Source: an uncultured virus (IMG/VR IMGVR_UViG_3300049595_003462)
Lineage: Duplodnaviria; Heunggongvirae; Uroviricota; Caudoviricetes
Length of the DNA stretch: 20,000 bases
Strand: one strand, 5' to 3'
IMG/VR virus record: IMGVR_UViG_3300049595_003462
This document shows positions 1,415-17,665 of the stretch, piece by piece. The translations under genes and the position numbers were made by a program. How positions within the stretch are numbered: position 1 is the first letter of the stretch; each line of letters starts with the position of its first letter. Below the pieces are notes generated by a model, which was given only the letters and a program-made list of their open reading frames with translations, was not told the DNA's origin and ran no database searches.

Positions 1415-1990
1415 ATGAAAGTTATATTTTTAGATCATGACGGTGTAATTTGTTTATTAACCGAATGGGGAAGTCGACATAAGAAACAAAAAAAATGGGG
1501 TGAACGGAATACATCCATCTCAATGAATGAAATACCACTTGAATATCGTTTTGATAATTTCAATCAAAAGGCGATTAACATCCTTAACGAAATTTTGGAA
1601 GAAACAGGAGCAGAAATTGTGGTTTCATCAGATTGGAAAAATTTTGCAACTCTTGAAGAGATGGGTAAATATTATGAATCCAAAGGGATTATTAAAAAAC
1701 CTATCGCATTTACATTAAATCTAGGTAATTGTACTTGGTATAATAAAGATGTTTGGGTTTGGAACCCAAAATGGGATTTGGAAATGAGTCGAGTTATTGA
1801 AATTAAACAATACCTACATGACCATCCTGAGATTACTCATTGGGTCTCAATTGATGATTTGAACATGGGTAAAAATGGGGAATCTTGGAAGGATTGGGGG
1901 TTGGATAACTTTGTCTTAACTCCAAATGGTAATGAAGGGATCAAACAATCGGGAATAAAAGAAAAAGTAATCAAATTTTTAAATGATTAA
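1415..1990 (+). CDS. HAD-superfamily phosphatase-like protein (resembles the HAD domain of Swiss-Army-knife RNA repair proteins)
   Basis: Motif I FLDHDGV, motif II VVSSDWK, motif IV WVSIDD. Confidence 0.8.
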   Translation: MKVIFLDHDGVICLLTEWGSRHKKQKKWGERNTSISMNEIPLEYRFDNFNQKAINILNEILEETGAEIVVSSDWKNFATLEEMGKYYESKGIIKKPIAFTLNLGNCTWYNKDVWVWNPKWDLEMSRVIEIKQYLHDHPEITHWVSIDDLNMGKNGESWKDWGLDNFVLTPNGNEGIKQSGIKEKVIKFLND

Positions 1991-6750: not shown

Positions 6751-6754
6751 TTTG

Positions 6755-6835
6755 CACGCCAGGAAGGATTCGAACCCCCGTTAAATTAACTTACAGTTTT
6801 GGAGACTGTTGCCTAAGCCGCTCGGCCACTGACGT
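6755..6835 (-). tRNA. tRNA-Trp(CCA) with enlarged variable region
   Basis: ACAGT-CTCCAAA-ACTGT, G73, variable region AAGTTAATTTAAC. Confidence 0.9.
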
Positions 6836-8439: not shown

Positions 8440-8517
8440 TGGGTGACTAACGGGAGTCGAACCCGTGACCTCTTGAACCACAATCAAGCACTCTAAACCA
8501 ACTGAGCTATAGCCAAC
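8440..8517 (-). tRNA. tRNA-His(GTG)
   Basis: CTTGA-TTGTGGT-TCAAG, G-1/C73 pattern. Confidence 0.92.
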
Positions 8518-8684
8518 ATGTAAAAGGTAGTGGTTGACTTTATCAAGAATCCCGCCTAGCGACCATAAGTTTGGGCCCAGCTTCACACACCATTAGAGAG
8601 TTGGGTATTACTACCTATCCTTAGTGTGTACCCTTGCGTCACGTCTCTCCACGCTTATCAACCTACGCATTTTACTACCAATTG

Positions 8685-8791
8685 CCGATTAAAAAGGATT
8701 CGAACCTTAATCTTACTCCCCTGGTTACCGTACCTAATCTGAAGACTCGAACTTCAGCGGGGGGTGTTGTGCGCCATTACACCATAATCAA
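8685..8791 (-). ncRNA. tRNA-like RNA (Gln-type D-arm) with branched insert replacing the anticodon loop
   Basis: TGATTA/TAATCG acceptor, TGGTGTAATGGCGCAC D-arm, AAGG-TTCGAAT-CCTT T-arm; insert contains CTGAAG-TTCGAGT-CTTCAG. Confidence 0.6.
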
Positions 8792-8840
8792 TCGAGTGTT
8801 TCGAATCACTCAGTCTCAGATTAATTACTCCTGAGATTTG

Positions 8841-8954
8841 TAATCAGGACAGGATTCGAACCTGTATTAGTTGTACACCTAACTGAATCAATTTCCTCCG
8901 AGTACATCCGAACCCTACTTTATCATCATGCATCTACCATTCTGCCACCTGACT
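8841..8954 (-). ncRNA. tRNA-Leu-like scaffold unit 1 (114 nt)
   Basis: AGTCAGG-TGGCAGAATGGTAGATGC...ACAGGTTCGAATCCTGTCCTGATTA. Confidence 0.8.
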
Positions 8955-9135
8955 ATTTCTTAAATGCTAATTTTATCTTTTCCCATATACTCATACTCTT
9001 ATAATCATAGTAAAAGTTTATTGCTCTTGGAATACCACTCGACCAATGATGACATTCTGTTGATAATTTTTCGTAATGTTCTAAATCTGATTCACGTAAA
9101 TCTTCATTAGTTGCTTGATAACATTTATTTTCCAT
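8953..9135 (-). CDS. hypothetical protein
   Basis: 60 aa; TAG stop overlaps the 5' end of unit 1. Confidence 0.65.
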   Translation of the reverse strand: MENKCYQATNEDLRESDLEHYEKLSTECHHWSSGIPRAINFYYDYKSMSIWEKIKLAFKK

Positions 9136-9208
9136 AATTTTATTTTTATTTAAAGTTTATCGTTCTAAATCCCGCCCTTCTGGTAGCTGCAAAACGGTAG
9201 AAGTAATA

Positions 9209-9457
9209 TCATTTATATCTTTTAAATCTATTATCACTTAAATCATCCACACCTTCACCAATTTTAATCCTATCTAATTTAGTTCTCTGTTCAAGTTCTA
9301 ATATTTTATTTTTCAATTCGTCTATAACCTTATTATATCCTTTTGTTCCTATTTCACCTTTAGATAAGTGTTTAGTTTTAGCTAAAATTGTTTCCAACTC
9401 TGTTCTTAACTTATCTATTTCTTTTTGTCTATTAATGATACTACTTGAACTTTTCAT
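9209..9457 (-). CDS. hypothetical coiled-coil protein
   Basis: 82 aa, K/E-rich, same strand as neighbours. Confidence 0.6.
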   Translation of the reverse strand: MKSSSSIINRQKEIDKLRTELETILAKTKHLSKGEIGTKGYNKVIDELKNKILELEQRTKLDRIKIGEGVDDLSDNRFKRYK

Positions 9458-9546
9458 CTTCGTAAGTTATTTTTTTGTTTTTAAATTAAATTATTATTTA
9501 GATACTTTATAAACTTCCCTACTGGGATTTGAACTCAACACTTTTG

Positions 9547-9688
9547 TAGTCAGGACAGGATTCGAACCTGTAACTCCTATTGCGTCTACTCATATCACTT
9601 TAGGATAGACTAATATGACCCTGCGGAGTAGAATCGTCTATCTTTCGATACCTATATTAGCGAGTCTAACCAATTCCGCCACCTGACT
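9547..9688 (-). ncRNA. tRNA-Leu-like scaffold unit 2 (142 nt)
   Basis: Conserved ends; insert closed by CTAATAT/ATATTAG with TATC-GAAA-GATA hairpin. Confidence 0.8.
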
Positions 9689-9818
9689 AAATTTGCTCGT
9701 CTATTCCGAGCTGTCAACGATCCTTGAAGCTTACCTACGCACTGTGAGGTAGACCGTGTGTTCGTTCGCATTGCCTAATCATTGAGCGCTTTTACATTTC
9801 GGCTGCCGTGCGTGTCAG

Positions 9819-9908
9819 TAGTCAGGACAGGATTCGAACCTGTAAATTTCCAATCGCAACGATACCATATCCTATCTTGGAGTCGAACCAACTTTAAACC
9901 ACCTGACT
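9819..9908 (-). ncRNA. tRNA-like scaffold unit 3 (90 nt, divergent D-arm)
   Basis: AGTCAGGTGG...ACAGGTTCGAATCCTGTCCTGACTA. Confidence 0.75.
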
Positions 9909-9915
9909 ATTTGTT

Positions 9916-10263
9916 TTATCTTTGATTTGTTTTTTCTAAATAATCTTTATACGATTTATATTTTTCCCTATGTTCGACAATTAACTTAATGTAGTCCTCC
10001 AACGGTTTTATCACACCTCTTTCTGTGATATACATTATTTCACCACCCATTCCTGGTTTTGCGTATAACTTATCTGGATTTTCATTACAGATTGGATAAC
10101 GTAAATCATATGAGTAACCATGGTTATTAACATTCGAGATGGGCATATCACATAACGCGGCAAATTTTTTCTTACTTGTGGTTACACATATCACTTCCAA
10201 CTCCATACCTCTACGGTACATTGTTATAGAATAGGTCTTATATTTTTTACTTAATTTTTCCAT
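9916..10263 (-). CDS. hypothetical protein
   Basis: 115 aa with own promoter; stop 7 nt before unit 3. Confidence 0.75.
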   Translation of the reverse strand: MEKLSKKYKTYSITMYRRGMELEVICVTTSKKKFAALCDMPISNVNNHGYSYDLRYPICNENPDKLYAKPGMGGEIMYITERGVIKPLEDYIKLIVEHREKYKSYKDYLEKTNQR

Positions 10264-10283
10264 CTTTTTTTATTATTGGAATA

Positions 10284-10315
10284 CAAAGATATGTATAATA
10301 TTTTAATCCACCAAA
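10284..10315 (-). promoter_or_regulatory. Bacteroidota-type promoter, repeat copy A
   Basis: TTTG-N20-TATCTTTG; near-identical to 13072-13103 and 13694-13725. Confidence 0.75.
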
Positions 10316-10321
10316 TCTTTT

Positions 10322-10543
10322 TTAAAAATATTTCCTACTTACCCATTCATCAGTACCAAGTTTTGGAGCCTCACCATTATTAAGTGTTAAATACATAAAA
10401 CCATTATAATTGTTGGTTTCATGTAATACATACTCAATCATTGTTATTACACCCAATTTCTCCTCCATTATAATGTTTGGATTAGATAATAACTTATTAA
10501 CCTTTTCTTTCACTAAATCCACATTTATAGTCTTTCTTTTCAT
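10322..10543 (-). CDS. hypothetical phage protein
   Basis: 73 aa, IEYVLHETNNYNGFMYL motif; promoter at 10564-10594. Confidence 0.75.
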   Translation of the reverse strand: MKRKTINVDLVKEKVNKLLSNPNIIMEEKLGVITMIEYVLHETNNYNGFMYLTLNNGEAPKLGTDEWVSRKYF

Positions 10544-10563
10544 ATTGTCTTTTGATTAGGATA

Positions 10564-10594
10564 CAAAAATACAAAAAATATATTAAATAACAAA
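10564..10594 (-). promoter_or_regulatory. Bacteroidota-type promoter
   Basis: TTTG-N19-TATTTTTG. Confidence 0.55.
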
Positions 10595-10604
10595 AAAAAT
10601 TTTG

Positions 10605-10708
10605 CAGTCAGGACAGGATTCGAACCTGTATAGTGCCTTTCACTTGGTTATCTTATGTCGAAATAAGAACTGTTTTTGCAGTGCGATAGCCATTCCGCTC
10701 ACCTGACT
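10605..10708 (-). ncRNA. tRNA-like scaffold unit 4 (104 nt, G discriminator)
   Basis: Conserved ends; insert with three small hairpins. Confidence 0.8.
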
Positions 10709-10838
10709 ATTTAAAAAATTAACTTACTAATTATAACCTATTTACGCTTGAGTTATAATCCCAATTTCCATCGTGGTTATTCGTAACTATCCCACACCTT
10801 ATTACCTACTTTCTTATTCGGTTCCTCAGTTAATTTTG

Positions 10839-10908
10839 TAGTCAGGACAGGATTCGAACCTGTAACGGAAACTATCGCAACCCCCTTTACCAGTTAAGTT
10901 ACCTGACT
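10839..10908 (-). ncRNA. tRNA-like scaffold unit 5 (70 nt, minimal)
   Basis: Conserved acceptor and T-arm; no canonical anticodon arm. Confidence 0.75.
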
Positions 10909-10966
10909 TCCATTCTAATGAGAGCATCTCACCTCAAAGGCTGTTCATAAACTAGCTTAATTAGTG

Positions 10967-11108
10967 TAGTCAGGACAGGATACAACCCTGTATAACACAT
11001 AATAGTTGGTGTGTGTTATTTAATCCATTAGACAAGGTAATTAATCCACTAACCAACATTGATAATCCCTCTCTTCTAACTTCTGCGTCTATATTCCGCC
11101 ACCTGACT
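10967..11108 (-). ncRNA. tRNA-like scaffold unit 6 (142 nt, degenerate T-loop)
   Basis: AGTCAGGTGGCGGAAT...ACAGGGTTGTATCCTGTCCTGACTA; ATAACACA/TGTGTTAT hairpin. Confidence 0.75.
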
Positions 11109-11114
11109 AAATAA

Positions 11115-11345
11115 CTATTCAATATAATACATTGAGTTTTCATTTGAGTAACAACCACCATTCCGGCTATCAAACCATTCACCATTATCAATCTGAAGAA
11201 TTTTAAATTTATCACCTGTATCAGGATCAAATTTATAATCAACTCCAATTATAGATGTTTTACGGAAGTTTTGTTGTGCCATTGATGTATAACCATCAAC
11301 ATGTACGTAATCACCAACATCTTTATTTTCAAGTATTTCTTTCAT
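11115..11345 (-). CDS. hypothetical protein
   Basis: 76 aa, ATGA-coupled to upstream ORF; stop 6 nt before unit 6. Confidence 0.7.
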   Translation of the reverse strand: MKEILENKDVGDYVHVDGYTSMAQQNFRKTSIIGVDYKFDPDTGDKFKILQIDNGEWFDSRNGGCYSNENSMYYIE

Positions 11346-11599
11346 ATTTTTTTATTTTTTTCAAACCATTCATCTAATGTAAAAATATATTGATCAATAT
11401 TTTCTAATAACTCTATCTTATGTTCATAAGCCGGATCCAACATCCATTCATATACACATTCAATTAGAGAATTAAGTAACATTGGATATTCAATCACATC
11501 AAATATAAATTTCTCTTTTGATTCATATTCAAAAGGAATATTATGTTCCCAACATTCTGGTTCAGAACAATGAGTATAATCAAGCACTAATCTTTCCAT
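11342..11599 (-). CDS. hypothetical protein
   Basis: 85 aa, AT-rich leader after unit 7. Confidence 0.7.
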   Translation of the reverse strand: MERLVLDYTHCSEPECWEHNIPFEYESKEKFIFDVIEYPMLLNSLIECVYEWMLDPAYEHKIELLENIDQYIFTLDEWFEKNKKI

Positions 11600-11616
11600 A
11601 ATTTTTATTTATTTTG

Positions 11617-11721
11617 TAGTCAGGACAGGAATCGAACCTGTATAATGTAGTATATTACCTTACTGAGAATCTACATTTTATCTCTAATGGTTTAGCGTCT
11701 AACCAATTCCGCCACCTGACT
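11617..11721 (-). ncRNA. tRNA-Leu-like scaffold unit 7 (105 nt)
   Basis: GGCGGAATTGGTTAGACGC D-arm; insert with AATGTAG/CTACATT helix. Confidence 0.8.
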
Positions 11722-11910
11722 ATGTCCCAAACTTCACTTAATGCGTCCATTAAGGATAGGTTTGGTAATCCACCATAACTTATGCCTTGGGCTATTCGTT
11801 TACGTGGAGAAATCACCACTGAAAATAGTGCTGATCTTACGGGAAGCATCGTGGTAGTTTTGTCGTCTTTCCGATCCGTCACCACGTTTCTAGTCTTAGT
11901 GTGGTTAACT

Positions 11911-12023
11911 TGGTAGTCAGGACAGGATTCGAACCTGTACGAGTGTTACTCTGTGTATCTGTTACCAGACGGTCAAGGGTTACGAACCCACACTTAGCGT
12001 CTAACCAATTCCGCCACCCGACT
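11911..12023 (-). ncRNA. tRNA-Leu-like scaffold unit 8 (CCA encoded)
   Basis: Ends CCTGACTACCA; anticodon position holds a branched domain (GGGTT/AACCC and TCTG-GTAA-CAGA hairpins) followed by GAGT/ACTC variable arm. Confidence 0.82.
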
Positions 12024-12072
12024 ATTTTTATTTGATTTTTGAGAATATATTTTCTAAATATCCAACTTCATT

Positions 12073-12411
12073 CTATCCAATCTTTTCTATTTTAATCACA
12101 CCTTTCATAAAATAACCCATATTTTCAACCCACCTATCCAAAGTGTCAAAACTATTTAGTTCGTCCCAAGTAAGGAAATTAGTGTCTACATTAGGAAAAT
12201 TAATAAATGGGTTATCTTCGTAATCAACGGTTCTAAGATTATATTGATAGTAAACACCAACAGGTCGACCCACTTTAATGGAATTTTTATCCATAAAATT
12301 ACATTCAACGATTTGTTCAATCTTAGCCGGAAAAAATATCCCCGGAAATTCTTTAGTTGATACGATTATGACATCGTCAAAATTTAATTTTGTATGATAA
12401 TTTGGTAACAT
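12073..12411 (-). CDS. hypothetical protein
   Basis: 112 aa between units 9 and 8. Confidence 0.7.
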   Translation of the reverse strand: MLPNYHTKLNFDDVIIVSTKEFPGIFFPAKIEQIVECNFMDKNSIKVGRPVGVYYQYNLRTVDYEDNPFINFPNVDTNFLTWDELNSFDTLDRWVENMGYFMKGVIKIEKIG

Positions 12412-12438
12412 ATTTGTTTATTTAAATTATTAATTTTG

Positions 12439-12524
12439 TAGTCAGGACAGGATTCGAACCTGTATACTTTCATCCTATTGATATTATCTCCTATTTGACC
12501 GTCATCCATTTGCGCCACCTGACC
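12439..12524 (-). ncRNA. tRNA-like scaffold unit 9 (86 nt)
   Basis: Identical to unit 11 except the first base. Confidence 0.8.
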
Positions 12525-12676
12525 ATAAGAAATATGAAGGCATATCGGTCGTTCCCAAGTTTTTGATGGTTAACCCCTGCCATACTCTTTGGACCGCTAA
12601 ATCCATACCATTTGAGATGTTAACCCTTGATTGATTGGACTATTACGTAATTTATCCTTTCAATTTCATATTTTTG

Positions 12677-12785
12677 TAGTCAGGACAGGATTCGAACCTG
12701 TAAGTAGTTTTCAAATTAGGCATTCATCTCTTTTACACAAAGCTTGGAGACGGCTTACTTTGGTGACCAATTCCGCCACCTGACT
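12677..12785 (-). ncRNA. tRNA-like scaffold unit 10 (109 nt)
   Basis: Conserved ends, unique insert. Confidence 0.8.
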
Positions 12786-12791
12786 ATTTTA

Positions 12792-12956
12792 TTACCTTTG
12801 TCCTTTTATATCTTTAATGGTGTTATCTACCATCCAATTTGCAATTTTTTCTCTTCCTTTTTGGTTTGGGACTAATTCAGGACTATCGATCCCAAATTGA
12901 ATTGCTGTTTCAACTAATTTTTTTAGTTCTTCTGTTGTAATATTAATCGTTTCCAT
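12792..12956 (-). CDS. small hypothetical protein (54 aa), not in the ORF track
   Basis: METINITTEELKKLVETAIQFGIDSPELVPNQKGREKIANWMVDNTIKDIKGQR*; fills the gap between units 11 and 10. Confidence 0.7.
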   Translation of the reverse strand: METINITTEELKKLVETAIQFGIDSPELVPNQKGREKIANWMVDNTIKDIKGQR

Positions 12957-12971
12957 AACATTTAATTTTAG

Positions 12972-13057
12972 TAGTCAGGACAGGATTCGAACCTGTATAC
13001 TTTCATCCTATTGATATTATCTCCTATTTGACCGTCATCCATTTGCGCCACCTGACT
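12972..13057 (-). ncRNA. tRNA-like scaffold unit 11 (86 nt, duplicate of unit 9)
   Basis: 85-nt exact direct repeat with 12439-12523. Confidence 0.8.
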
Positions 13058-13071
13058 ATTTTATAACAATA

Positions 13072-13103
13072 CAAAGATATGTATAATATTTTAATCCGCC
13101 AAA
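13072..13103 (-). promoter_or_regulatory. Bacteroidota-type promoter, repeat copy B
   Basis: TTTG-N20-TATCTTTG directly upstream of unit 11. Confidence 0.75.
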
Positions 13104-13114
13104 TTTTTTTTATG

Positions 13115-13204
13115 GTTAATAATTAACTTAGTTGTGGTTCCTCGCCACTATTAGTTAGCTTAATTCTTGCACTAAGTTAATTATTAACATTCCGCAACCT
13201 GACT
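13115..13204 (-). pseudogene. truncated scaffold unit 12 (5' half only) fused to a long hairpin
   Basis: AGTCAGGTTGCGGAATG followed by an 18-bp perfect inverted repeat (13115-32/13171-88); no T-arm or 3' acceptor strand. Confidence 0.6.
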
Positions 13205-13269
13205 AAATTCTAATTCTATGACATTCCCACTTTCTTCAGGTGCTATGAATTAGTAACAATCTGCCTTTG

Positions 13270-13360
13270 TAGCCAGGACAGGATTCGAACCTGTAAATTG
13301 AGGGCGCGACCCTCTTGACATTATCCCGAGGACTGCGTCTACCAATTTCGCCACCTGACT
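13270..13360 (-). ncRNA. tRNA-Leu-like scaffold unit 13 (91 nt)
   Basis: GGCGAAATTGGTAGACGC D-arm, GAGGG/CCCTC variable arm, no canonical 7-nt anticodon loop. Confidence 0.8.
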
Positions 13361-13365
13361 ATATT

Positions 13366-13674
13366 TTATTCTTCAAACTCTTTTTTAAGTTTTAAATAAC
13401 TTTCGTAACGTCTTTCTTTTTCCCATTTATTATGTAGTTCATTATTAGATAGACGTTTTTGATATTGTTCATCAGTTTCTTCAACCATTCTAGTGATTTC
13501 TCCGACATAGAGCCCGCGTCCGTCATCATCGTCCTCTTCCCATGATGACCTGATTACATCATCATCTTCTAATTGTAAATGCTTAATATCCGACCATTTG
13601 ATAAGGCGATTTTCACCAAGCCAAAACAATTGCGTTTCTCTTTTGATTTTATTTAATGATTTTTTATCTTCCAT
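13366..13674 (-). CDS. hypothetical acidic protein
   Basis: 102 aa with own promoter; stop 5 nt before unit 13. Confidence 0.75.
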   Translation of the reverse strand: MEDKKSLNKIKRETQLFWLGENRLIKWSDIKHLQLEDDDVIRSSWEEDDDDGRGLYVGEITRMVEETDEQYQKRLSNNELHNKWEKERRYESYLKLKKEFEE

Positions 13675-13693
13675 GACTATTTTTTTAACAATA

Positions 13694-13725
13694 CAAAGAT
13701 ATGTTTAATATTTTAATTCACCAAA
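13694..13725 (-). promoter_or_regulatory. Bacteroidota-type promoter, repeat copy C
   Basis: TTTG-N20-TATCTTTG. Confidence 0.75.
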
Positions 13726-13734
13726 TCTTTTTTG

Positions 13735-13865
13735 TAATCAGGACAGGATTCGAACCTATAACCGTGCGTAATCTTCTATTTCAACTCATTGTACTTTTGA
13801 GTCCGTCACAGCTTTGTTTGTGGTTAGCTTTACCACATAGCGTCTACCAATTCCGCCACCTGACC
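13735..13865 (-). ncRNA. tRNA-Leu-like scaffold unit 14 (131 nt)
   Basis: GGTCAGGTGGCGGAATTGGTAGACGC...ATAGGTTCGAATCCTGTCCTGATTA; TGTGGT/ACCACA and ACTCA/TGAGT hairpins. Confidence 0.8.
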
Positions 13866-13941
13866 ATTTTACCCCACTTCACCAGGTTAACGGACTGGCT
13901 GCCATGTGGGAGTGGGGGTTTCCCGTTATTTCGGGACTCCG

Positions 13942-14014
13942 TGGTGAGAGGTGGGATCGAACCACCGGCACGTAGATTTTCAGTCTACTGCTCTACCTAC
14001 TGAGCTATCACACC
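13942..14014 (-). tRNA. tRNA-Phe(GAA)
   Basis: GTAGA-CTGAAAA-TCTAC. Confidence 0.94.
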
Positions 14015-14020
14015 AAATTT

Positions 14021-14302
14021 GAGGTTGAGAAGTCCTCTGTGTTGTGCAAACAGTATTACATTTAAAATACGTCCGACTATTTCATTCCTATCTCACAGGA
14101 ACAACACAATATTGTTGATAATGTTGGGATACCCGTCTCGTCCCAATCTTAATTGCTTCCTGAGTTTTAATGAGGCCTCAGCAAAGGGTGATGAATTCTG
14201 ATTCCATTCTGGATTGTCGACATCCGTTGAATGGAGAAAACCATTATCAATTTCTTTTTGTCTGGGGGAGTAGGTACCAACCAACATAAAAACCTACTCC
14301 CC
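14021..14302 (-). ncRNA. candidate multi-domain structured RNA (~280 nt)
   Basis: Helices 14265-75/14292-302 (11 bp), 14115-23/14242-50 (9 bp), 14038-45/14101-08 (8 bp) with nested hairpins. Confidence 0.6.
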
Positions 14303-16984: not shown

Positions 16985-17665
16985 TTATATCGTCTTTTTT
17001 ATAGTTCTACCTAATTCCCATTCAGGATACAAATATAAGTCAATTTTTTTAATTTTTTTAGTTTCTTTTCCATTTGTTATCCAACAAGTACCAAATTGTG
17101 AATTTTTTTCACCTTTTTGATGTATTGCATTTTTTTCACCAATTATTTTTTTTGTTTCATCTTTGTGGGTTTTTCCTCTAAAAGTACCACCAAAATCAAA
17201 ACCAGAATCAATCTTACTTTGTTTTATTTTTTCAAGTTGTATTTTTCTTTTTTCAGGTGTCACCGTTTTATAATAATTTTTGAAAATCACACTTAAAAAA
17301 TTATCACCATATCTTTCTTGTAATATTTTATCAGTTGTTTTTCTACCTTTTTTAACACCTTCAGGACTTATAAAACCTCCACCCCCACCATAAACTAAAT
17401 TTATACATAATTTATCTTCTAATAATGTTTGGTTTACAATTTCTTTCTCTCTTTTTTTTAATAAATCTCTATTTGGTAACATTTCTAAAATCTCAATTTT
17501 AAAATTTTCTTTACCATATTTTTTTAAACTTCTTGTTATTCTTTCACCACTACCCATATAACCGTCTTCTAAATTACTGGTTGAGTGCATCCCAATGTAA
17601 AATTTTCCATTTATAATATTTGTTGTCTTATAAATGTAATGATATTTGTGTTGTTTTCTTGGCAT
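16985..17665 (-). CDS. free-standing GIY-YIG (Seg-like) homing endonuclease with NUMOD3-like DNA-binding motif
   Basis: YIYKTTN..NGKFYIG.H.....DGYMGSG, E in LKKREKEI, FRGKTHKDETKKII, GEKNSQFGTCWITNG. Confidence 0.9.
   Translation of the reverse strand: MPRKQHKYHYIYKTTNIINGKFYIGMHSTSNLEDGYMGSGERITRSLKKYGKENFKIEILEMLPNRDLLKKREKEIVNQTLLEDKLCINLVYGGGGGFISPEGVKKGRKTTDKILQERYGDNFLSVIFKNYYKTVTPEKRKIQLEKIKQSKIDSGFDFGGTFRGKTHKDETKKIIGEKNAIHQKGEKNSQFGTCWITNGKETKKIKKIDLYLYPEWELGRTIKKTI

What the first reader, a model, noticed from the sequence alone, without database searches (positions are those of the whole stretch)
8841..13865. Array of 13+1 tRNA-Leu-like scaffolds with hypervariable cargo in place of the anticodon arm
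Seen: 13 complete minus-strand units (70-142 nt) share a 5' end close to AGTCAGGTGGCGGAATTGGT(T)AGACGC (D-arm divergent in units 3, 5, 9 and 11) and a 3' end close to TACAGGTTCGAATCCTGTCCTGACTA. This gives a paired acceptor stem, a T-arm and mostly A73; unit 8 encodes CCA. The middles are unrelated to each other (except units 9 and 11), lack a canonical anticodon arm and are often independently folded. Established: bacterial LeuRS relies on A73 and the D/T elbow rather than the anticodon, and RNase P, 3' nucleases and the CCA-adding enzyme read the acceptor/T domain, so such RNAs could be matured and even leucylated. Inference: ends are conserved while the core diversifies, unlike uniform pseudogene decay. 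Candidate roles are a natural tRNA-scaffold display system for variable RNAs (antisense, guide or aptamer), decoys against tRNA-targeting defences such as anticodon nucleases, or processing punctuation. I do not recognise this as a described family.
Basis: partly seen in the sequence, partly recalled or inferred. Interest (0 to 1): 0.95.

Follow-up and report, generated by a model that had tools for sequence, protein, structure and literature searches.

The report
Phage tRNA-Leu shells with swappable cores
An uncultured lake phage carries 13 genes shaped like the outer frame of a leucine tRNA, each with a different unrelated middle, and they belong to a large phage-only family whose middles are exchanged between phages and whose job is unknown.

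Summary
Thirteen minus-strand units (70-142 nt) plus one 5' fragment share a tRNA-Leu-type acceptor stem, D arm and T arm around unrelated cores. They are not decayed tRNAs, intron-bearing tRNAs or host sequence.

- **Spread:** They are absent from cultured phages.
- **RNA-level selection:** stems covary. The flanks (U at -1, A73, C74) match the phage's 24 real tRNAs.
- **Core exchange:** near-identical relatives differ by whole cores, with breakpoints inside the constant ends.
- **Core conservation:** two core types are conserved in 38 and about 46 contigs.
- **Neighbour:** a SegB-like homing endonuclease lies in the same cluster.
- **Closest known:** T5 RNA1/RNA2 and T4 rnaC, stable tRNA-like RNAs of unknown function. 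They share the architecture but fall outside this sequence family.

Most likely these are tRNA-processed small RNAs that display a swappable core, trim neighbouring mini-gene messages and act as recombination joints. Expression, charging and core function are untested. This scan noted the same family earlier on other DNA.

The parts
13735..13865 (-). Shell unit U1, 131 nt, G1, A73
   Evidence: R1 70.3 bits
13270..13360 (-). Shell unit U2, 91 nt; ARAGORN calls it tRNA-Ser(gga). The whole unit is 84% alike in L082.
   Evidence: R1 72.6 bits
13188..13204 (-). 5'-only shell fragment (the '+1'), followed by a long hairpin and a promoter copy
12972..13057 (-). Shell unit U3, 86 nt. It starts 10 nt after a promoter copy, and its core is identical to that of U5.
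   Evidence: R1 71.8 bits
12677..12785 (-). Shell unit U4, 109 nt, D arm truncated
   Evidence: R1 70.8 bits
12439..12524 (-). Shell unit U5, 86 nt, same as U3 except for base 1
   Evidence: R1 66.3 bits
11914..12023 (-). Shell unit U6, 110 nt, followed by an encoded CCA
   Evidence: R1 75.0 bits
11617..11721 (-). Shell unit U7, 105 nt
   Evidence: R1 85.8 bits
10967..11108 (-). Shell unit U8, 142 nt, T arm degenerate
   Evidence: R1 54.0 bits (not in the training set)
10839..10908 (-). Shell unit U9, 70 nt, shortest, divergent D arm, no well-formed anticodon stem
   Evidence: R1 51.5 bits (not in the training set)
10605..10708 (-). Shell unit U10, 104 nt, G73
   Evidence: R1 65.3 bits
9819..9908 (-). 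Shell unit U11, 90 nt, divergent D arm
   Evidence: R1 60.2 bits
9547..9688 (-). Shell unit U12, 142 nt
   Evidence: R1 70.6 bits (not in the training set)
8841..8954 (-). Shell unit U13, 114 nt; overlaps the stop codon of the upstream ORF
   Evidence: R1 77.3 bits
8953..13674 (-). Nine small ORFs (54-115 aa) in six blocks. Each block is bracketed by two units: 13366-13674; 12792-12956; 12073-12411; 11342-11599 with 11115-11345; 10322-10543 with 9916-10263; 9209-9457 with 8953-9135.
   Evidence: No Pfam family; PHROGs gave only two weak matches to families of unknown function for 9209-9457 at E 4e-4 and 1.5e-3. In 5 of 6 blocks the stop codon lies 7 nt or less before the next unit.
13690..13725 (-). 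Copy 1 of a repeated 36-nt promoter-like element
   Evidence: 3 copies; 0 in shuffles
13068..13103 (-). Copy 2 of the promoter-like element, 10 nt upstream of U3
10280..10315 (-). Copy 3 of the promoter-like element
16985..17665 (-). GIY-YIG homing endonuclease, 40% identical to T4 SegB over its full length, in the same tRNA cluster

Best explanation
The 13 units are genes for 'shell RNAs' derived from a Bacteroidota-type tRNA-Leu. The acceptor stem, D arm and T arm are kept. The anticodon and variable arms are replaced by an unrelated core of about 18-90 nt.

**RNA level (inferred).** The units are transcribed with the tRNAs and the small ORFs of the cluster. RNase P cuts them out at the 5' end, and the tRNA 3'-end and CCA pathway finishes the 3' end. 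This would give stable small RNAs that could be charged with leucine and that display the core. It would also trim the mini-gene messages that lie between pairs of units.

**DNA level.** Exchange at the constant ends is shown in related phages. The roughly 26-nt constant ends serve as homology for recombination, which swaps cores, whole units and the genes between them among co-infecting phages. This may be started by the SegB-like endonuclease, whose T4 relative cuts T-loop DNA; that step is inferred.

**What the cores do is not known.** Their number, their turnover and the conservation of some types suggest separate functional modules, plausibly used in phage-host or phage-phage conflict.
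For: **Anatomy and family**
- All 13 units score 51.5-85.8 bits on model R1, against 34.5 or less for real tRNAs.
- Only 14 MAG contigs of inconsistent taxonomy carry them among 185,579 species genomes.
- No cultured phage carries them.

**Selection on the RNA fold**
- Compensatory changes occur in the T stem in sets not anchored on it.
- Compensatory changes occur in the acceptor stem: pair 4-128 is CG in 19, GC in 5 and AU in 1.
- Compensatory changes occur in the D stem.

**tRNA-type processing context**
- T at position -1 in 219 of 261 distinct upstream contexts, and C74 in 255 of 265 downstream contexts.
- The window's own tRNAs show T at -1 in 18 of 24 and C74 in 24 of 24.

**Leucine type**
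- Shell nucleotides 5-26 are identical to E. coli tRNA-Leu genes.
- tRNA-Leu(CAA) genes of Bacteroidota MAGs share the D arm and a near-identical T arm.
- A73, A14, A15, G18G19, U48, T54, T55, C56 and A58 are kept.
- The review PMC9976931, section 12, reports that tRNA-Leu lacking the anticodon and variable arms is still charged.

**Cores are replaced, not drifted**
- 21 pairs have both 150-nt flanks alike and unrelated cores. Twenty of these come from seven loci at one site that carry six or more cores. The other pair has flanks 99-100% identical.
- 63 pairs have the same core in unrelated flanks.
- In two phages that are 96-99.7% alike, breakpoints fall inside the constant ends. One of the replacements copies a unit that sits 5.5 kb away.

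**Cores can be constrained**
- Two core types occur in 38 and about 46 contigs, with conserved sequence. One of them has compensatory pairs in the core.
- T5 RNA1 is conserved over its full length in 487 T5-like records.

**Link to ORFs**
- An ORF stop lies 10 nt or less upstream for 24% of 128 units, against 4% of controls.
- Six ORF blocks in the window are bracketed by units.

**Endonuclease**
- The SegB homologue is shown.
- T4 SegB recognises the T-loop motif (PMC2330249, abstract and discussion passages).
Against: - No expression data exist. No RNA run holds the stretch, so transcription, cleavage, CCA addition and charging are all inferred.
- As a class the cores are not thermodynamically special: z -0.48 against -0.28 for controls. 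They lack a consistent closing stem.
- None of the 12 distinct window cores has a homologue in the clustered sample. Only the unit at 13270-13360 is matched whole, by one contig, L082, at 84%. Selection on this phage's own cores is therefore not shown.
- Cores matched no non-unit DNA in 0.56 Mb of related loci, so no target is known.
- One third of 128 units have no ORF within 100 nt on either side. Message trimming cannot be the whole story.
- The acceptor stem (A1-U72, G2-C71, U3-A70) differs from the host-type tRNA-Leu. Its effect on LeuRS is unknown.
- The conservation of core types could partly reflect recent spread.
Confidence: 0.45

Rival explanations
1. Only the shell matters. The units are processing punctuation and recombination joints, comparable to PeSL cassettes, which delimit and shuffle mini-gene cassettes. 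Homing-driven gene conversion may keep them uniform. The cores are passengers that merely must not be a working anticodon arm.
For: - Units abut ORFs tightly.
- Breakpoints fall at the constant ends.
- A SegB homologue is present.
- Cores are not notably folded.
- 175 of 207 core clusters are singletons.
- One real tRNA-Lys(UUU), scoring 66.3 bits on Rfam, is built on the same acceptor stem and T arm in L045. This shows that any body can sit between the ends.
Against: - Two core types are kept in 38 and about 46 contigs with conserved sequence. One has compensatory pairs in the core.
- T5 RNA1's core is conserved in 487 records.
- A third of units are far from any ORF.
- D-loop and T-loop identity positions beyond what cleavage needs are kept.
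Confidence: 0.27
2. The units are decoys or mimics of tRNA-Leu. The shell binds and titrates a tRNA-directed host defence (anticodon-arm nucleases, 3'-end-modifying toxins) or LeuRS or EF-Tu. Having no anticodon arm, it is immune to cleavage.
For: - The LeuRS identity set and the elbow are kept.
- There are 13 copies in one phage.
- The record also encodes a T4 Rnl1-type RNA ligase and an RNA-repair HAD domain. This fits a host that attacks tRNAs.
- Defences that cut anticodon arms of host and phage tRNAs are described in PMC13056530 (abstract and passages) and in PMC10264068 and PMC12445682 (search listing only).
Against: - A decoy does not need hundreds of different cores or conserved core families.
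- No defence that targets tRNA-Leu is known for the presumed hosts.
- Nothing was tested.
Confidence: 0.13
3. The units are decaying duplicates of a tRNA-Leu gene (pseudogenes), or tRNA genes interrupted by introns or insertions that are spliced out.
For: - Rfam's tRNA model gives 27-42 bits for 11 of 13 units.
- ARAGORN calls one unit tRNA-Ser.
- Some family members look like complete tRNA-Leu(CAA), for example L042 at 49.8 bits.
Against: - The ends are kept, with covariation and tRNA-type flanks, across hundreds of contigs, while cores are replaced wholesale between 99-100% identical flanks.
- The constant parts (26 + 26 nt) contain no anticodon arm. Removing the core cannot give a decoding tRNA.
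- Cores of 18-90 nt are too short for the self-splicing group I introns known in bacterial tRNA genes. That size comparison is recalled, not tested.
Confidence: 0.03

Closest known systems
Phage T5 RNA1, RNA2 and RNA3 ('tRNA-like stable RNA with unknown functions', record AY543070)
   Same: - They lie in a tRNA cluster interleaved with small ORFs, promoters and homing endonuclease genes.
- RNA1 (144 nt) has a Leu-type D arm, a T arm and a pairing acceptor around a core of about 80 nt.
- RNA2 has a T arm almost identical to the shell's.
   Different: - They score like ordinary tRNAs on the shell model, at 28.8 and 21.6 bits.
- Each is a single copy.
- RNA1's core is conserved in 487 T5-like records rather than swapped.
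- They are reported as stable RNAs in infected cells, whereas nothing is known about expression here.
Phage T4 rnaC and rnaD (species 1 and 2 small stable RNAs)
   Same: - They are encoded in the tRNA cluster beside segB.
- rnaC ends in a T arm plus acceptor-like 3' strand.
- Their function is unknown.
   Different: - rnaC scores 21.9 bits on the shell model.
- It has no Leu-type D arm.
- Two genes rather than an array, with no shared constant shell.
PeSL (promoter-early stem-loop) cassettes of T4-type phages (PMC2839356, abstract read)
   Same: Short repeats flank small non-essential genes. Recombination between them explains insertions, deletions and replacements between close relatives (compare).
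   Different: - PeSLs are promoter-plus-terminator DNA elements, not tRNA-shaped RNA genes.
- Here the repeat is split into two ends around a variable core.
- The repeated promoter is a separate element.
T4 SegB homing at tRNA T-loop DNA (PMC2330249)
   Same: - A GIY-YIG gene 40% identical to segB sits in this tRNA cluster.
- Every unit carries the T-loop motif that SegB needs.
   Different: It is not known whether this enzyme cuts shell units. No cleavage site or homing event is shown here.
tmRNA
   Same: Its 5' and 3' ends form an acceptor and T-arm tRNA-like domain around a foreign middle, and RNase P processes it (PMC3985003, abstract in the listing).
   Different: - ARAGORN finds no tmRNA.
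- The units are 70-142 nt and have a D arm and A73 (Leu type).
- There is no shared reading frame or pseudoknot set.

Membership tests
Canonical tRNA (Rfam RF00005 / ARAGORN) | Score at or above the Rfam gathering threshold (29 bits) | tested here: inconclusive
   - 5 of 13 units pass with default filters.
- 9 of 13 reach 29 bits or more with lax filters, 2 score 27-28, and 2 are not listed.
- Real tRNAs of the window score 48-72 bits.
Canonical tRNA (Rfam RF00005 / ARAGORN) | Anticodon stem-loop of 5 bp plus 7 nt between the D and T arms | tested here: not met
   ARAGORN accepts 1 of 13 units, as tRNA-Ser(gga) with a poor stem. The folds show no such arm.
Bacterial tRNA-Leu (class II) | Leu-type D arm and elbow positions (A14, A15-U48, G18G19, T54-T55-C56, A58) and A73 | tested here: met
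   - Nucleotides 5-26 are 100% identical to annotated E. coli tRNA-Leu genes.
- In the window, A14 is kept in 12 of 13 units, A15 in 13, GG in 12, T before the T stem in 13 and A73 in 12.
- The list of features comes from PMC9976931, section 12.
Bacterial tRNA-Leu (class II) | Leu anticodon and long variable arm; charging by LeuRS | tested here: not met
   No anticodon arm or regular variable arm is present. Charging itself cannot be tested with these tools.
Phage tRNA-like stable RNAs (T5 RNA1/RNA2, T4 rnaC) | Gene in a phage tRNA cluster, with tRNA-like paired ends and T arm around an expanded non-tRNA core | tested here: met
Phage tRNA-like stable RNAs (T5 RNA1/RNA2, T4 rnaC) | Sequence or profile homology to T5 RNA1/RNA2 or T4 rnaC | tested here: not met
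   Model R1 gives 28.8, 21.6 and 21.9 bits, within the range of ordinary tRNAs. Units score 51.5 bits or more.
Phage tRNA-like stable RNAs (T5 RNA1/RNA2, T4 rnaC) | Accumulates as a discrete stable RNA during infection | not testable with these tools
   No RNA run was listed, and there is no cultured carrier.
PeSL-type shuffling cassettes | Differences between close relatives have breakpoints in the repeat | tested here: met
   Shown in related phages of the family, not in this phage itself.
PeSL-type shuffling cassettes | The repeat is a promoter plus a terminator stem-loop | tested here: not met
   The units are tRNA-shaped. The repeated promoter is a separate 36-nt element. No terminator-like site lies in the units on the coding strand.
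tmRNA | Detected by ARAGORN with a tag peptide frame | tested here: not met
   no tmRNA

The most novel reading that the evidence does not exclude
Lake phages share a community-wide library of hundreds of small effector RNAs. Each is mounted in one tRNA-Leu shell that gives it tRNA-type maturation, stability and perhaps a leucine at its 3' end. The modules are traded between co-infecting phages by homing directed at T-loop DNA, and they serve in an arms race with host defences or rival phages. This would be a natural counterpart of the laboratory tRNA scaffold, and a new class of mobile RNA cassette.
Probability: 0.2. Interest if true: 0.92.

Novelty: new variant of a known kind. Interest (0 to 1): 0.8.

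Why it matters
Small tRNA-like stable RNAs have sat unexplained in the tRNA clusters of T4 and T5 for about fifty years. This family shows the same build at large scale: one constant tRNA-Leu shell, hundreds of cores, arrays of up to 13 per phage, and clear exchange at the constant ends.

- **A testable idea.** The shell recruits the host's tRNA machinery and the core is the working part.
- **A tractable model.** T5 RNA1 has the same architecture and is conserved in 487 cultured phages.
- **Annotation.** These units are missed or mislabelled as odd tRNAs.
- **Genome evolution.** The constant ends look like joints for shuffling accessory genes.

Tried and rejected
- **RNA evidence.** No RNA holder was listed. 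Twenty lake or freshwater DNA runs hold 93-98% of the words.
- **Laying contigs of 4 runs.** Contigs break at the repeats. The 'joints' have only 18-33 letters on one side, inside the constant ends, so they do not show rearrangements.
- **Close relatives among cultured phages.** Megablast found none. The distant search matched only ordinary tRNA parts.
- **Known RNA families.** Rfam gave nothing but tRNA in the window and in 99 kb of related loci.
- **Cores as copies or antisense of nearby DNA.** There were no convincing matches outside units in 0.56 Mb. Host genomes were not searched for targets because the host is unknown.
- **Cores as stable independent folds.** Not supported.
- **A closing helix under the D stem.** Only a weak excess, -2.53 against -2.17 kcal/mol.
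- **Cores as nested tRNA fragments.** T-loop motifs are not enriched: 7 observed against 7.1 expected.
- **A D-arm insertion in the unit at 9547-9688.** The model pairs the first D-stem copy, and I dropped the idea.
- **Core linked to a neighbouring ORF (toxin-antitoxin-like pairs).** The same core mostly sits in unrelated flanks: 63 pairs against 12 that share one or both flanks.
- **Small ORFs.** No Pfam family. PHROGs gave only two weak matches to families of unknown function, for one ORF.
- **Gaps between units as folded RNAs.** z scores are -0.36 to -2.0, not convincing.
- **Literature.** Four full-text searches found no description of this family. Subscription-only papers on T4 and T5 stable RNAs were not available. 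No supplements were consulted.

Full report
**1. What is in the window**

The window is the minus strand of bases 15227-35226 of a 42,236-bp IMG/VR virus record that CheckV rates 10% complete. ARAGORN finds 25 tRNA genes, all on the minus strand. Between tRNA-Phe (13941-14014) and tRNA-His (8441-8516) lie 13 units of 70-142 nt.

- Each unit starts close to AGTCAGGTGGCGGAATTGGT and ends close to ACAGGTTCGAATCCTGTCCTGACTA.
- The 3' 21-mer matches 14 times at up to 3 mismatches, with none in 200 shuffles. Thirteen matches are the units and one is tRNA-Cys.
- The 5' octamer matches 11 times, against 0.35 expected. That count includes a 5'-only fragment at 13188-13204.
- The first 7 and last 7 bases before A73 pair, and a 5-bp T stem with a TTCGAAT loop precedes them.
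- Twelve cores are distinct. Units 12972-13057 and 12439-12524 are the same apart from base 1.
- No further copy lies elsewhere in the record.

**2. Not ordinary tRNAs, and in no other Rfam family**

- ARAGORN accepts one unit, as tRNA-Ser(gga).
- Rfam's tRNA model gives 27-42 bits for 11 of 13 units with lax filters. Nine reach the 29-bit threshold, and real tRNAs here score 48-72.
- No other Rfam family matches in the window or in 99 kb of related loci.
- The constant parts (26 + 26 nt) hold no anticodon arm, so removing the core cannot produce a decoding tRNA.

**3. A large, phage-only family**

- The exact 25-nt 3' end occurs in at least 129 IMG/VR stretches, and the exact 26-nt 5' end in at least 124.
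- One contig (L031/L032) is the same phage at 100% identity.
- Among one genome for each of 185,579 prokaryote species, only 14 contigs carry the 3' end. All are MAG contigs of mutually inconsistent taxonomy, five of them Bacteroidota. These are most simply phage contigs placed in bins.
- No record among 50,697 cultured phages has the shell.
- I built covariance model R1 from 60 units, 9 of them from the window. It scores all 13 window units at 51.5-85.8 bits, including the four left out of training. Ordinary tRNAs score 34.5 bits or less.

**4. The shell is a tRNA-Leu shell under selection as RNA**

- Shell nucleotides 5-26 are 100% identical to annotated tRNA-Leu genes in all 5,426 E. coli genomes.
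- In five Bacteroidota MAGs the next-best R1 matches (34-54 bits) are genuine tRNA-Leu genes, four of six with anticodon CAA. They have the same D arm and a near-identical T arm but a different upper acceptor stem.
- In sets that were not anchored on the part examined, stems show compensatory changes:
  - T stem: for example ACTGG/CCAGT and GATGG/CCATC, and GC in 20 against AU in 6.
  - Acceptor pair 4-128: CG 19, GC 5, AU 1.
  - D stem: three pairs with changes on both sides.
- The review PMC9976931 (section 12, passages read) gives the leucine identity set for E. coli. It comprises A73, the A15-U48 pair, G18G19, A20a and the D-loop/T-loop contacts. The anticodon and the variable arm are not part of it.
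- The same review states that tRNA-Leu lacking both of those arms is still charged.
- These positions are kept:

| Position | Window units | Unanchored family set |
|---|---|---|
| A14 | 12 of 13 | 147 of 159 |
| A15 | 13 of 13 | 145 of 159 |
| GG in the D loop | 12 of 13 | 147 of 159 |
| T before the T stem | 13 of 13 | 80 of 82 |
| A73 | 12 of 13 | 64 of 82 |

**5. The flanks carry the same signals as real tRNA genes**

Across 278 distinct instances, position -1 is T in 219 of 261 distinct upstream contexts. Position 74 is C in 255 of 265 downstream contexts and is followed by A-rich sequence. The window's 24 real tRNAs show T at -1 in 18 and C74 in 24. This is the best indirect evidence that the units pass through the tRNA maturation pathway. 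It is not proof.

**6. The cores**

- Among 254 distinct units, the cores fall into 207 similarity clusters, 175 of them singletons.
- Cores are A-rich (34% A) and are not more stably folded than shuffles as a class: mean z -0.48, against -0.28 for flank controls, p 0.03.
- They have only a weak excess of end-to-end pairing.
- They matched no non-unit DNA in 0.56 Mb.
- T-loop-like motifs are not enriched in them.
- Two core types that I followed up are widespread. One occurs in 38 contigs. The other occurs in 51 pattern matches, about 46 of them inside a shell.
- Both types have highly conserved sequence. One shows compensatory pairs in a core stem: CG 17 against UA 4, and GC 19 against AU 1.
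- One core also occurs inside a different, fully covarying acceptor stem (L286/L313).
- None of the window's 12 cores has a homologue in the clustered sample.
- The unit at 13270-13360 is 84% alike, over its whole length, in L082.

**7. Cores are replaced at the constant ends**

I compared 150-nt flanks and cores for all pairs of instances.

| Pair class | Pairs |
|---|---|
| Both flanks alike (100 nt or more), cores unrelated | 21 |
| Same core, unrelated flanks | 63 |
| Both flanks and core alike | 7 |
| Same core, one flank alike | 5 |

- Seven loci (L056, L079, L099, L106, L109, L115, L212) share flanks at 82-96% identity yet hold six or more different cores at one site.
- Two phages that are 96-99.7% identical (L039 against the contig of L017-L019) differ by three events:
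  - a unit-plus-spacer indel whose junction is the 26-nt 3' end;
  - a replacement that starts right after a 3' end;
  - a core swap bounded by the 3' end and the first 10 nt of the 5' end, where the incoming unit matches a unit 5.5 kb away at 96%.
- In the window itself, similarity to other contigs in the non-coding flanks stops at the core edges: 9664-9844, 8687-8867 and 11708-11862.

This rules out slow decay as the source of core diversity.

**8. Layout with the small genes**

- Nine small ORFs (54-115 aa) form six blocks. None matches a Pfam family. PHROGs gave only two weak matches to families of unknown function, for one ORF.
- Each block is bracketed by two units.
- In five blocks the stop codon lies 7 nt or less before the next unit, or overlaps it. 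The start codon lies 15-89 nt after the preceding unit.
- Family-wide, 24% of 128 units have a same-strand ORF stop 10 nt or less upstream, against 4% of controls. Twenty per cent have a start 20 nt or less downstream, against 7% of controls.
- However, 33% of units have no ORF within 100 nt on either side.
- Three copies of a 36-nt promoter-like element lie in the array, one of them 10 nt before a unit.
- That element has TTTG and TAnnTTTG boxes, which I recall as the Bacteroidota promoter type. A related pattern is enriched in the window: 5 matches against 0.26 expected.

**9. Neighbours**

- The ORF at 16985-17665 is a GIY-YIG protein 40% identical to T4 SegB over its full length (E 2e-37).
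- T4 SegB lies in the T4 tRNA cluster, recognises a 27-bp site whose core is the T-loop motif GGTTCRANTCC, and drives preferential inheritance of the region (PMC2330249, abstract and discussion passages).
- The record also encodes a T4 Rnl1-type RNA ligase, an RNA-repair HAD domain and a metallophosphoesterase.

**10. Comparison with what is known**

- T5's tRNA region has the same mix of tRNAs, small ORFs, promoters and homing endonucleases. It also holds RNAs annotated as 'tRNA-like stable RNA with unknown functions'.
- T5 RNA1 has a Leu-type D arm, a T arm and a pairing acceptor around a core of about 80 nt. RNA2 has nearly the shell's T arm.
- T4 rnaC ends in a T arm plus acceptor-like strand.
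- On model R1 these score 28.8, 21.6 and 21.9 bits, no better than ordinary tRNAs. They share the architecture but are not members of this sequence family.
- T5 RNA1 is conserved over its full length in 487 T5-like records, and most of the listed records do not annotate it. That makes it a conserved single gene rather than a swappable one.
- PeSL cassettes (PMC2839356, abstract) are the closest precedent for shuffling at short repeats, but they are promoter-terminator elements.
- Four literature searches found no description of a constant tRNA shell with exchangeable cores. One survey of viral structured RNAs mentions only a few tRNA-like candidates (PMC10690425, passages).
- Earlier notes of this scan describe the same kind of shell on other genomes. 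I retested their main claim, exchange at the constant ends, on my own data, and it holds.

**11. Verdict**

The finding is real, non-random and widespread. The anatomy, the covariation, the tRNA-type flanks and the exchange at the ends are shown. Transcription, cleavage, CCA addition, leucylation, the role of the SegB homologue and any function of the cores are inferred.

I rate the combined reading at 0.45: processed shell RNAs that display a core, trim neighbouring messages and act as recombination joints. A shell-only reading gets 0.27, a decoy reading 0.13, and pseudogenes or introns 0.03.

Noticed in passing
window 16985-17665 (-): A GIY-YIG homing endonuclease 40% identical to T4 SegB lies inside the tRNA cluster. 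Relatives at 62% and 43% identity lie near shell units in L025/L026 and L047.
   Followed up: partly
window 9689-9818 (-): The 130-nt non-coding gap between two units is 77-80% conserved in three other contigs (L009, L089, L063), while the cores on both sides differ. Its fold is not thermodynamically special, z -0.36.
   Followed up: partly
window 8517-8840 (-): A 324-nt non-coding stretch between the last unit and tRNA-His is partly conserved in L017-L019 (77%), L039 (90%) and L025 (82%). It holds a lone T-arm-like hairpin.
   Followed up: no
window 14117-14248: The stretch between tRNA-Phe and tRNA-Glu is 83% conserved in L017-L019 and L039, and is also matched in L063 and L020. It may be another conserved RNA or a small gene.
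   Followed up: no
window 10280-10315, 13068-13103, 13690-13725 (-): Three near-identical copies of a 36-nt promoter-like element with TTTG and TAnnTTTG boxes. I recall this as the Bacteroidota promoter type.
   Followed up: partly
window 1415-1990 (+); L276 1676-2788 (-) and 12513-13220 (+): RNA-repair kit: a HAD domain of 'Swiss Army Knife' RNA repair proteins, a T4 Rnl1-type RNA ligase and a metallophosphoesterase. This hints that the host attacks tRNAs.
   Followed up: no
L045 4491-4561 (-): A full tRNA-Lys(UUU) of 71 nt, scoring 66.3 bits on Rfam, is built on the same acceptor stem and T arm as the shell units.
   Followed up: partly
L279 4502-4645 (T5 RNA1): T5 RNA1 is conserved over its full length in 487 T5-like phage records. 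In most of the 40 records listed it is unannotated or overlaps a 'hypothetical protein' call.
   Followed up: partly
window 6754-6835 (-): The gene called tRNA-Trp(cca) is 82 nt long and has an extra hairpin where the variable loop would be, which is unusual for tRNA-Trp.
   Followed up: no
L286 and L313: One conserved core type sits in a shell whose acceptor stem is entirely different but still pairs, with the D and T arms kept.
   Followed up: no
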